Source of the DNA: a phage
Direction: 5' to 3' (one strand)
DNA: 64,000 nucleotides
Assembly (NCBI GenBank): GCA_036252695.1
Contig: GCA_036252695.1_4122.1
Part shown: one piece after another, positions 60,813-61,925 of the stretch
How positions within the stretch are numbered: the stretch's first letter is position 1
Layout of the letters: every line of letters starts with the position of its first letter
Notes under the pieces: generated by a model
Databases searched by the model: none
What the model was told of the DNA's origin: nothing
Seen by the model: only the letters and a program-made list of their open reading frames with translations
Program-made: the position numbers and the translations under genes

Positions 60813-61925
60813 ATGAAAAAGTATTTGGTTGGCGGTTACGTCCGTGACCGTTTAATGGGCATCCGTGCAAAAGACAAAGATTATGTCATTGTTGGTGCAT
60901 CCGAATCTGATCTTAAGTACTTGCAAAGTATTGGCTATAAGCAAGTAGGTAAGGATTTCCCAGTATATCTAAGTCCAGAAGGTAATGAACACGCATTAGC
61001 CCGTACTGAGCGTAAAACTGGTACTGGATATGGTGGCTTTGAAGTGGATACAAAAGGCGTAACACTAGAACAAGATTTGTATCGCCGTGACCTTACAATT
61101 AATGCAATTGCGTATGATCCAGTACTACAAATTCACATCGATCCATACGGTGGTAAAGCTGATATCAAGAACAAGATACTACGTCATGTTTCTGACCATT
61201 TTAAAGAAGATCCATTACGCGTGTTACGTCTTGCTCGATTTGCTACTCGTTATTCAGACTTTACTATCCATGAAAGCACTGAGGAACTCGCTATTGGAAT
61301 GGTCAATAGTGGTGAGCTAAATCATCTTGTTCCTGACCGTGTTTTTGTGGAATTCGAAAAATCATTTTCTGAAGAAAAGCCTTCAAAGTTCCTTAAGACG
61401 CTAAGTAAATTTGGTTATTACGAAAAGGTGTTTAATACATCTTTGACCAAAAAGAATTTAGACCTTATTGATTATATTTCAGATAACTGTACTGATGTAT
61501 ATAAACCATATTTTCTGTGGTCTATTCTTCTTGAAAATGAAGAAGTAAATAATGATTCAGTACTTAACGGTGCTATTAAAGTTCCAGTTAAGTATGTTAA
61601 ATTTAGTAATTATATCAAACGTTTCCGTGATGATATCAAAACATTCCGTAAAAAGACCCCTATTGAAATGGGTAATATTTTATTGGATATGAATATTAAA
61701 AATAACGGAGGTGAAGAATTCCTTTATAAAGTTTTGGAATACTTCATTTTGCGAAAAGAAATTGATTTAGAACTTGAAGATCTAATTATTAAAGTTTATG
61801 ATCGTTATACTGATGTTGAATTGCCTGATATTCAGCAAATGGTCAAAGATGGTGAACTTGAAACGTCAGAAATTCGTGATTTTGTTTGTGAACTTCGTTA
61901 CGAAGCAATCAAACAAATGTTCTAA
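60813..61925 (+). CDS. cca: tRNA nucleotidyltransferase (CCA-adding enzyme)
   Basis: Head-domain motifs GGYVRDRLMG, DKDYV and RRDLTINA, colinear with bacterial CCA-adding enzymes. Confidence 0.8.
   Translation: MKKYLVGGYVRDRLMGIRAKDKDYVIVGASESDLKYLQSIGYKQVGKDFPVYLSPEGNEHALARTERKTGTGYGGFEVDTKGVTLEQDLYRRDLTINAIAYDPVLQIHIDPYGGKADIKNKILRHVSDHFKEDPLRVLRLARFATRYSDFTIHESTEELAIGMVNSGELNHLVPDRVFVEFEKSFSEEKPSKFLKTLSKFGYYEKVFNTSLTKKNLDLIDYISDNCTDVYKPYFLWSILLENEEVNNDSVLNGAIKVPVKYVKFSNYIKRFRDDIKTFRKKTPIEMGNILLDMNIKNNGGEEFLYKVLEYFILRKEIDLELEDLIIKVYDRYTDVELPDIQQMVKDGELETSEIRDFVCELRYEAIKQMF

What the first reader, a model, noticed from the sequence alone, without database searches (positions are those of the whole stretch)
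60813..61925. Phage-encoded CCA-adding tRNA nucleotidyltransferase
The head-domain motifs (GGxVRD, DxD, RRDLTINA) are intact. No tRNA genes are recognisable in this window, so the enzyme would act on host tRNAs, plausibly to restore 3' ends removed by host nucleases. This complements the Rnl1/Pnk module.
Basis: partly seen in the sequence, partly recalled or inferred. Interest (0 to 1): 0.5.

Follow-up and report, generated by a model that had tools for sequence, protein, structure and literature searches.

The report
Jumbo-phage CCA-adding enzyme, HD site lost
This is a real, already annotated phage copy of the enzyme that builds the CCA end of tRNAs; it has lost the phosphatase site of its E. 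coli relative and most likely finishes the phage's own tRNAs, several of which lack an encoded CCA.

Summary
The ORF at 60813-61925 (+, 370 aa) is real and is a class II tRNA nucleotidyltransferase. All catalytic motifs (GGxVRD, DxD, RRD, EDxxR) and the flexible loop needed for terminal-A addition are intact and invariant across about 36 relatives. The head and neck are 51% identical to E. coli Cca.

The window comes from an Asteriusvirus (Rak2/121Q-like jumbo coliphage). The protein is 100% identical to 121Q gp539, already named tRNA nucleotidyltransferase in RefSeq. Its RaK2 homologue was called a putative CCA-adding enzyme in 2013.

- There is no HD domain. The C-terminal 160 aa are a degenerate remnant of the E. 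coli-type HD region (hhalign 96%) with no histidines. It still folds as a body/tail (AF2 pLDDT 93; TM 0.72 to T. maritima CCA enzyme).
- The genome does encode tRNAs, about 120 kb away. Three of 7 (121Q) and 4 of 7 (G17) lack an encoded CCA, and they read codons the phage uses heavily.

Maturation of the phage's own tRNAs is therefore the best-supported role. Host-tRNA repair is possible but unproven. Rnl1 and Pnk exist, but about 52 kb upstream. The finding is ordinary and already known.

The parts
60813..61925 (+). cca gene: class II tRNA nucleotidyltransferase, 370 aa plus stop. It is 100% identical to Escherichia phage 121Q gp539 (YP_009102126.1).
60802..60808 (+). Shine-Dalgarno-like GGGGGAA, 4-10 nt before the ATG. 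The stop of the upstream 40-aa ORF is at 60809-60811, so the genes are tightly packed.
   Evidence: read directly from the sequence; function inferred
60813..61247 (+). Head (Pol-beta nucleotidyltransferase) domain, about aa 1-145. It contains motif A GGYVRD (60831-60848), the carboxylate pair D21-K-D23 (60873-60881), motif B RRDLTINA (61083-61106) and motif D EDPLR (61206-61220).
   Evidence: Pfam PF01743 over aa 4-124; invariant columns in 36 relatives; alignment to E. coli Cca
61011..61040 (+). Flexible loop R67-F76 (RKTGTGYGGF). It has the same length as the E. coli Cca loop R65-F74 (RKSGSGYTGF). G72 and Y73 correspond to E. coli G70 and Y71, which are required for adding the terminal A.
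   Evidence: experimental basis in PMC2532741
61248..61433 (+). Neck domain, about aa 146-207 (PolyA_pol_RNAbd). This is the last stretch alignable to E. coli Cca by BLASTP.
61434..61922 (+). C-terminal helical body/tail, aa 208-370. It is a degenerate remnant of the E. coli-type HD region: aa 235-369 align with E. coli residues 266-403. The segment carrying H...HD (E. coli 208-265, with H255-D256) is reduced to about 27 residues without His. The region is net acidic (-8) with one basic stretch at aa 251-300 (+7).
   Evidence: local hhalign, Prob 96.4%, E 1.2e-9; His positions; AF2 model and Foldseek; charge counts
6720..7862 (+). Rnl1-type RNA ligase. Partner at genome level only, about 53 kb upstream of cca.
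   Evidence: Pfam RNA_lig_T4_1 and T4_Rnl1_C
8686..9618 (+). Polynucleotide kinase / 3'-phosphatase (P-loop kinase plus HAD_PNKP). Partner at genome level only.
   Evidence: Pfam HAD_PNKP 8e-44, AAA_33 3e-13
46030..48306 (+). RlaP-family RNA-repair nucleotidyltransferase interrupted by an in-frame LAGLIDADG insertion. A third dispersed RNA-repair gene in the window.

Best explanation
The gene encodes a working class II CCA-adding tRNA nucleotidyltransferase. It descends from a gammaproteobacterial (E. coli-type) Cca and has kept the polymerase half but lost the HD phosphohydrolase active site. Expected mechanism, inferred from homology: two carboxylates (D21, D23) hold the Mg2+ ions; the EDxxR template in the neck selects CTP and then ATP; the flexible loop switches the pocket to ATP for the last step; the helical body/tail holds the acceptor/T-arm of the tRNA so that synthesis stops after CCA. 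The enzyme needs a 3'-OH end and cannot by itself heal 3'-phosphate or 2',3'-cyclic phosphate ends. Its most concrete substrates in the infected cell are the phage's own tRNAs. Three to four of the seven phage tRNA genes (Thr-UGU, Gly-UCC, Ser-ACU, and Asn-GUU in G17) end in discriminator + CAA/CAT rather than CCA. These tRNAs decode ACA, GGA and AGU, codons the AT-rich phage uses heavily. The host encodes CCA in all its tRNA genes and keeps Cca only for low-level repair. Carrying its own enzyme would make the phage independent of that limited host capacity. The same enzyme would also re-complete any tRNA, host or phage, whose CCA end has been nibbled to a 3'-OH. Shown: sequence, motifs, fold, loss of the HD site, CCA-less phage tRNA genes. 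Inferred: CCA product specificity, substrates in vivo, benefit to the phage.
For: Family and motifs. 51% identity to E. coli K-12 Cca over aa 1-207. G7 G8 R11 D12 D23 R91 R92 D93 E132 D133 R136 are invariant, and D21 is D or E, in 36 relatives spanning 37-93% identity. The loop has the same length as in E. coli, G72 is invariant and Y73 is present in 34 of 36. In E. coli Cca, G70A, Y71A or loop replacement abolish A addition (PMC2532741). Full-length fold: AF2 pLDDT 93.3, pTM 0.86. Foldseek gives TM 0.72 to T. maritima CCA enzyme 3h38 over about 400 columns, 0.69 to its tRNA complex 5hc9 and 0.65 to B. stearothermophilus 1miv. Phage tRNAs: the whole 121Q genome was scanned and all tRNAs lie at 72.7-78.0 kb. 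CCA-less genes, all with 7/7 acceptor-stem pairs: 3/7 in 121Q, 4/7 in G17, 3/6 in Salmonella phage SD-15_S21, 2/6 in Klebsiella phage RCIP0023. Codon use in the window: ACA 42% of Thr, AGT 34% of Ser, GGA 26% of Gly. [quoted passage not shown] The RaK2 authors proposed the same role for gp031 (PMC3622015).
Against: No biochemical or genetic data exist for this protein or any close relative; none was found. T4 also has CCA-less tRNA genes (4/8) and, to my knowledge, no cca of its own, so the host enzyme can do this job and the phage gene is not strictly needed. Product specificity in class II enzymes depends partly on the C-terminal region: a PAP core fused to a Cca C-terminus makes CCA (PMC2532741), and A-adding C-termini are reported to inhibit CC addition (PMC3925840). 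Here that region is highly diverged and net acidic. The protein scores below the curated cut-offs of all NCBIfam Cca equivalogs because only half of it matches. The gene lies about 120 kb from the tRNA cluster, so there is no operon link.
Confidence: 0.65

Rival explanations
1. Counter-defence or repair enzyme for host tRNAs. The phage enzyme mainly regenerates CCA tails that host exonucleases or immune nucleases remove from the existing tRNA pool. It would work alongside Rnl1, Pnk and RlaP as a dispersed RNA-repair toolkit.
For: The chemistry is identical to that of maturation, so the enzyme is unlikely to tell host from phage tRNA. The same genome encodes Rnl1, Pnk and RlaP. A comparative study lists CCA-adding enzymes among jumbo-phage RNA-repair functions (PMC7824862). 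Immune effectors that cut tRNA 3' CCA tails now exist: Cas12a3 (PMC12851939, PMC13594972). As RuvC-type nucleases they should leave 3'-OH ends, which an HD-less enzyme could extend (general knowledge of RuvC chemistry, not stated in those papers). More distantly related putative tRNA nucleotidyltransferases are reported in T7-like Pectobacterium phages (PMC7693777). I did not check whether those phages carry tRNA genes; T7-like phages generally do not, to my knowledge.
Against: The premise that the phage has no tRNAs is false. Loss of the HD phosphatase/cyclic phosphodiesterase site removes the end-healing activity that makes E. coli Cca a 'repair' protein, so ends left by metal-independent RNases could not be extended without Pnk. 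cca is not linked to Rnl1/Pnk (52 kb apart). No tail-cutting defence is known to me in the E. coli hosts of these phages. Neither Cas12a3 paper mentions phage Cca in its text.
Confidence: 0.25
2. Altered-specificity nucleotidyltransferase. Because the C-terminal half is replaced, the enzyme is no longer a strict CCA adder. It might be A-adding only, CC-adding only or poly(A)-polymerase-like, or it might act on non-tRNA RNAs.
For: The C-terminal region helps set the product in class II enzymes (PMC2532741; PMC3925840). The C-terminus here is unalignable to E. coli Cca by BLASTP and unusually acidic. Foldseek matches A-adding enzymes (4wby, 1vfg; TM 0.63-0.65) nearly as well as CCA enzymes.
Against: The score against Cca models is far higher than against PcnB (2e-81 versus 7e-26) or the A-adding model (1e-16). 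The loop is full length, so the deletion typical of CC-adding enzymes is absent. The C-terminus is still homologous to that of E. coli Cca. The phage has tRNA genes that need both C75 and A76.
Confidence: 0.08
3. Dispensable passenger gene with no significant role.
For: The host already has Cca. T4 manages without its own (plus own knowledge).
Against: Full-length orthologues are retained in phages of Escherichia, Salmonella, Klebsiella, Cronobacter, Pectobacterium, Serratia and Erwinia, down to about 40% identity, with every catalytic residue invariant. Synteny is conserved.
Confidence: 0.03

Closest known systems
Escherichia phage 121Q gp539 (YP_009102126.1), Klebsiella phage RaK2 gp031, PHROG 2244
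   Same: 100% identical to 121Q gp539. Matches PHROG 2244 over the full length at 7e-116. 69% identical to the Alcyoneusvirus (RaK2-like) protein. RaK2 gp031 was described as a putative CCA-adding enzyme for its own tRNAs (PMC3622015).
   Different: Nothing: this is that family. Public names vary ('phosphatase', 'multifunctional CCA protein', 'hypothetical protein').
E. coli Cca (b3056, P06961), multifunctional CCA-adding/repair enzyme
   Same: Head and neck are 51% identical over aa 1-207. Motifs A-E are the same and the flexible loop is 8/10 identical. The distal C-terminal region is homologous (hhalign 96%).
   Different: The phage protein is 42 aa shorter. The segment with the H...HD dyad (E. 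coli 208-265) is cut to about 27 aa and there is no His after residue 171. The 2',3'-cyclic phosphodiesterase, 2'-nucleotidase and phosphatase activities (own knowledge: Yakunin et al. 2004) are therefore not expected. The phage protein scores 274 bits against a cut-off of 451 for PRK10885.
HD-less class II CCA-adding enzymes with solved structures (T. maritima 3H37/3H38/5HC9; B. stearothermophilus 1MIV; human TRNT1 8CBM)
   Same: Four-domain 'sea-horse' head/neck/body/tail architecture. TM 0.65-0.72 over the full length.
   Different: Only 19-22% sequence identity. The C-terminal domain here derives from an HD-type ancestor and is net acidic.
A. aeolicus A-adding enzyme (1VFG, 4WBY) and E. 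coli poly(A) polymerase I (3AQK)
   Same: Same superfamily, motifs and overall fold.
   Different: Much weaker profile scores. Lower TM for PAP (0.59). The phage protein clusters by sequence with bona fide Cca.
T4 tRNA handling (Pnk + Rnl1 repair; CCA-less tRNA genes matured by host Cca)
   Same: A coliphage with its own tRNA genes, half of which lack CCA. It has the same kind of Pnk/Rnl1 pair as this window.
   Different: T4 borrows the host enzyme (own knowledge: Deutscher, Foulds and McClain 1974; Morse and Deutscher 1976 is listed in the references of PMC7693777). The jumbo phage brings its own.

Membership tests
Class II CCA-adding tRNA nucleotidyltransferase | Pol-beta-type head with motif A (GGxVRD ... 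DxD carboxylates) | tested here: met
   GGYVRD at aa 7-12 and D21-K-D23. These align with E. coli D21/D23. G7, G8, R11, D12 and D23 are invariant; D21 is D in 31 and E in 5 of 36 relatives. PF01743 7e-19.
Class II CCA-adding tRNA nucleotidyltransferase | Motifs B (RRD), C, D (EDxxR nucleotide template) and E | tested here: met
   R91 R92 D93; D110 G114 D117; E132 D133 R136; R142 F143. All are invariant in 36 sequences.
Class II CCA-adding tRNA nucleotidyltransferase | Flexible loop between motifs A and B, required for terminal A addition (deleted in CC-adding enzymes) | tested here: met
   RKTGTGYGGF has the same length as E. coli R65-F74, and the G70/Y71 equivalents are conserved. Functional basis in PMC2532741.
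Class II CCA-adding tRNA nucleotidyltransferase | Helical neck, body and tail that bind the acceptor/T-arm | tested here: met
   PF12627 6e-8. AF2 model pLDDT 93. Full-length Foldseek matches, TM up to 0.72, including the tRNA complex 5hc9. Caveat: the C-terminal region is net acidic.
Class II CCA-adding tRNA nucleotidyltransferase | Adds exactly C-C-A to tRNA 3'-OH with CTP and ATP, without a template | not testable with these tools
   Needs an enzyme assay. No published assay for this family was found.
E. coli-type multifunctional Cca (CCA addition plus HD phosphohydrolase; NCBIfam PRK10885) | HD domain with H...HD...D metal ligands | tested here: not met
   No PF01966 hit. His occurs only at 60, 108, 125, 129, 153 and 171. 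The hhalign alignment starts after the E. coli H255-D256 segment.
E. coli-type multifunctional Cca (CCA addition plus HD phosphohydrolase; NCBIfam PRK10885) | Score above the curated equivalog cut-off over the full length | tested here: not met
   273.8 bits against a cut-off of 451. Only model positions 1-207 of 409 are matched.
Bacterial poly(A) polymerase I (PcnB) | Match to the PcnB models above cut-off | tested here: not met
   TIGR01942: 91 bits against 305.65. PRK11623: 47.6 against 702.
A-adding tRNA nucleotidyltransferase | Match to the A-adding equivalog | tested here: not met
   NF041569: 60.5 bits against 1440. The structural similarity to 1vfg/4wby is shared by all class II enzymes.
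T4-like tRNA repair module (Pnk + Rnl1) including cca | Physical or operon linkage of cca with Pnk/Rnl1 | tested here: not met
   Rnl1 is at 6720-7862, Pnk at 8686-9618 and cca at 60813-61925. The conserved neighbours of cca are instead lysozyme, HPF, Nudix and Grx.

The most novel reading that the evidence does not exclude
The HD-less, acidic-tailed phage Cca is a dedicated counter-defence enzyme. It would rebuild the CCA tails of tRNAs, host and phage, faster than tail-cutting immune nucleases (Cas12a3-like RuvC effectors or hyperactive exonucleases) remove them. Alternatively, its diverged C-terminal domain makes it selective for the phage's own tRNAs. Either case would be the first demonstrated viral answer to attacks on the tRNA 3' end.
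Probability: 0.15. Interest if true: 0.6.

Novelty: already known. Interest (0 to 1): 0.22.

Why it matters
As it stands this confirms an existing annotation. It also tidies three points. The 'multifunctional' or 'phosphatase' labels on this phage family are over-annotations, because the HD site is gone. The enzyme has obvious in-house substrates, the CCA-less phage tRNAs that read the phage's favoured codons. It is not physically part of the Rnl1/Pnk repair module. If someone showed that the enzyme protects the tRNA pool against 3'-tail-cutting defences, it would become a new class of anti-defence function. That is a hypothesis, not a finding.

Tried and rejected
- HD domain: searched with Pfam and NCBIfam, by His inventory and by profile-profile alignment. 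The active site is absent and only a degenerate scaffold remains.
- Operon link with Rnl1/Pnk: rejected on distance.
- Promoter and terminator scans around the gene: the promoter-like count equals the shuffled expectation, and there is no terminator between cca and the Nudix gene. No transcription unit could be defined.
- PAP, A-adding and CC-adding assignments: rejected on profile scores and loop length.
- Literature searches for an experimental study of any phage Cca, or for a stated link to Cas12a3: none found.
- PMC7291057 (a toxic nucleotidyltransferase-like Gp22 in a T7-like Klebsiella phage) and PMC7693777 (Pectobacterium T7-like phages) concern distant, different proteins and were not used as evidence of function.
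- A search for a T4/RNase BN citation gave only indirect hits. The T4 dependence on host Cca is therefore cited from my own knowledge.
- 50001-base requests, a wrong file path and several malformed paper queries failed for technical reasons.

Full report
**Observation.** The window has an ATG-to-stop ORF at exactly 60813..61925 on the + strand, encoding 370 aa. EDPLR (aa 132-136) is also present. The match is not a chance one. Pfam gives the PolyA_pol head domain at 7e-19 and the neck (PolyA_pol_RNAbd) at 6e-8. NCBIfam gives the E. coli-type Cca model at 2e-81. PHROG 2244 'tRNA nucleotidyltransferase' matches at 7e-116 over the full length. The best solved-structure relatives are class II CCA- and A-adding enzymes. 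ARAGORN and Rfam both find no tRNA in the window.

**Where the window comes from.** The last 6 kb are 99.8% identical to Escherichia phages vB_EcoM_G17 and Sharanji and 98.7% identical to 121Q. These are Asteriusvirus, Rak2-like jumbo myoviruses of about 350 kb. The protein is 100% identical to 121Q gp539, which RefSeq names 'tRNA nucleotidyltransferase'. Other records call it 'multifunctional CCA protein', 'phosphatase' or 'hypothetical protein'. The RaK2 genome paper described the homologue gp031 as a putative CCA-adding enzyme that could mature the phage's own tRNAs, alongside Pnk and RNA ligase (PMC3622015). A comparative study lists CCA-adding enzymes as a common jumbo-phage RNA-repair function (PMC7824862). 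The finding is therefore already in the databases and the literature.

**Catalytic half.** BLASTP against authentic E. coli K-12 Cca gives 51% identity over residues 1-207 and nothing beyond. I aligned 36 family members spanning 37-93% identity. G7, G8, R11, D12, D23, R91, R92, D93, D110, G114, D117, E132, D133, R136, R139, R142 and F143 are invariant, and D21 is Asp or Glu.

The flexible loop between motifs A and B is RKTGTGYGGF. It has the same length as the E. coli loop R65-F74 (RKSGSGYTGF), and the G70 and Y71 equivalents are conserved. In E. coli Cca, G70A, Y71A, deletion of the loop or replacement by the PAP loop all reduce the enzyme to CC addition. CC-adding enzymes naturally lack this loop (PMC2532741). 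The catalytic half therefore looks like that of a complete CCA adder. It does not look like a CC-adding enzyme, and its profile scores are far higher for Cca than for PcnB or the A-adding model.

**C-terminal half.**
- Pfam gives no HD hit.
- The protein has no histidine after residue 171.
- The NCBIfam Cca model is matched only over positions 1-207 of 409, so the score (274 bits) is below the curated cut-off of 451.

The region is nevertheless not foreign. I compared a profile of the C-terminal parts of 82 phage-family members with a profile of HD-bearing cellular Cca C-termini. hhalign gave 96.4% probability (E 1.2e-9), pairing phage residues 235-369 with E. coli residues 266-403. The preceding E. 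coli segment 208-265 holds the H...HD dyad (H255-D256, counted on the sequence printed). About 27 His-free residues stand opposite it in the phage protein.

The AlphaFold2 model is confident (pLDDT 93.3, pTM 0.86). [quoted passage not shown] The protein thus has the usual head/neck/body/tail plan (PMC3925840). Its body/tail is a degenerate HD-derived helical bundle. The phosphatase and 2',3'-cyclic phosphodiesterase activities of E. coli Cca (own knowledge: Yakunin et al. 2004) should be gone.

One oddity remains. The C-terminal region is net acidic (-8 in this protein, family mean -2.4, against +5.2 for the HD-bearing cellular group). It has a single basic stretch at aa 251-300.

**The phage's own tRNAs.** I fetched the whole 121Q genome and scanned it. 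All tRNA genes sit in one cluster at 72.7-78.0 kb, about 120 kb from cca. I read the 3' ends after checking the 7-bp acceptor stems.
- In 121Q, Ser-UGA, Met-CAU, Asn-GUU and the doubtful 'Leu-UAA' encode CCA.
- In 121Q, Gly-UCC, Ser-ACU and Thr-UGU end in N73-CAA.
- In G17, the genome closest to the window, 4 of 7 lack CCA, Asn-GUU included.
- The pattern holds in Salmonella phage SD-15_S21 (3 of 6) and in the more distant Klebsiella phage RCIP0023 (2 of 6).

The CCA-less tRNAs read ACA, GGA and AGU. In 81 ORFs of the window these make up 42% of Thr, 26% of Gly and 34% of Ser codons, well above their shares in E. coli as I recall them. By contrast, every E. coli tRNA gene encodes CCA, and the host enzyme serves only end repair (PMC5824355). 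The phage therefore brings substrates that need de novo CCA synthesis into a host geared only for repair.

As a control, T4 also has CCA-less tRNA genes (Ile, Ser, Pro and Gln; 4 of 8). To my knowledge it relies on host Cca. The phage gene is therefore helpful rather than indispensable.

**Context.** Rnl1 (6720..7862) and Pnk with its HAD phosphatase (8686..9618) are real but lie about 52 kb upstream. A third repair-type gene, an RlaP nucleotidyltransferase, is at 46030..48306. The immediate neighbours of cca are a LysM lysozyme, an HPF/RaiA-like ribosome factor, small unknown ORFs, a Nudix hydrolase, a glutaredoxin and a macro-domain protein. The lysozyme-HPF-cca-Nudix-Grx order is kept in Pectobacterium phage CBB and, according to the notes in its annotation, in Cronobacter phage GAP32. 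Promoter-like sites are at chance level, and there is no terminator between cca and the Nudix gene. A GGGGGAA Shine-Dalgarno-like element precedes the ATG.

**Mechanism and rivals.** The best-supported account is a genuine CCA-adding enzyme that acts on 3'-OH ends. Its clearest clients are the phage's CCA-less tRNAs, and it would also re-complete any trimmed tRNA. I put this at 0.65.

Cas12a3 effectors show that cutting CCA tails is a real antiviral strategy (PMC12851939 and PMC13594972). Against it as the main role:
- Its premise, that the phage has no tRNAs, is false.
- Loss of the HD healing site argues against a self-sufficient repair enzyme.
- The gene is not linked to Rnl1/Pnk.
- No such defence is tied to these hosts, and neither Cas12a3 paper mentions phage Cca in its text.

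I put host repair as the main role at 0.25. An altered product specificity is possible, because the C-terminal region helps set the product in this family and is diverged here. The loop, the profile scores and the retained homology argue against it (0.08). A passenger gene with no role is unlikely given conservation across phages of seven host genera (0.03).

**Verdict.** The functional inference needs correcting: there is no HD domain, the phage has its own CCA-less tRNAs, and the gene is not one module with Rnl1/Pnk. Interest is low. The only reading that would raise it is a demonstrated anti-defence role at the tRNA 3' end, which needs experiments.

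Noticed in passing
window 46030..48306 (+): The RlaP-family RNA-repair nucleotidyltransferase gene is 758 aa here but 410 aa in 121Q (gp506). 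The flanks are 96% and 70% identical. An in-frame insertion of about 340 aa with a LAGLIDADG domain sits between ...HGYD|C and ...N|CKHAMH, which looks like an intein or homing-endonuclease insertion.
   Followed up: partly
window 58881..59213 (+): Phage-encoded HPF/RaiA (S30AE) ribosome-associated factor homologue (Pfam 3e-10). It lies a few genes upstream of cca, and the order is conserved in Pectobacterium phage CBB and, per CBB's annotation notes, Cronobacter phage GAP32. In CBB a YqeY-domain ORF follows the glutaredoxin.
   Followed up: partly
L003 25964-26055 (121Q) and L010 7466-7557 (G17): tRNA-Ser with anticodon ACU (A at position 34, unusual) and no encoded CCA. The Salmonella and Klebsiella relatives carry a GCU version instead.
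   Followed up: no
L010 7565-7654 (G17): The gene annotated as tRNA-Met(CAU) is 90 nt long with a long variable arm, unlike the 75-nt version in 121Q. This is an odd type-II-like tRNA with a CAU anticodon.
   Followed up: no
L003 24085-24166 (121Q): RefSeq's 'tRNA-Leu(taa)' is not called by ARAGORN or by Rfam at gathering score. The same slot in G17 holds a good tRNA-Arg(UCU), so the 121Q copy is probably a decayed or pseudo tRNA. Gly-UCC is also below Rfam's gathering score.
   Followed up: partly
window 61434..61922 (aa 208-370 of Cca): The C-terminal body/tail is net acidic (-8), with a single basic stretch at aa 251-300 (+7). Cellular HD-type relatives average +5. This is unexpected for a tRNA-binding tail.
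   Followed up: partly
window 62033..62434, 62436..62684, 63264..63740 (+): A Nudix hydrolase, a glutaredoxin and a weak macro-domain protein lie directly downstream of cca. 121Q also has a Sir2 + Nudix pair and PhoH further upstream (121Q gp476/477/480). These may concern NAD/ADP-ribose handling.
   Followed up: no
public records matched: The annotation of this gene is inconsistent across records: 'phosphatase' (KM507819), 'multifunctional CCA protein' (Sharanji, slurp01, phAPEC6), 'multifunctional ... 2'3'-cyclic phosphodiesterase' (CBB, Serratia BF) and 'hypothetical protein' (G17, PBECO4 GenBank). The phosphohydrolase labels are not supported by the sequence.
   Followed up: yes
L003 2631-3320 (121Q gp67): A gene annotated as 3'-5' exoribonuclease elsewhere in the genome. 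It could bear on tRNA 3'-trailer trimming before CCA addition.
   Followed up: no
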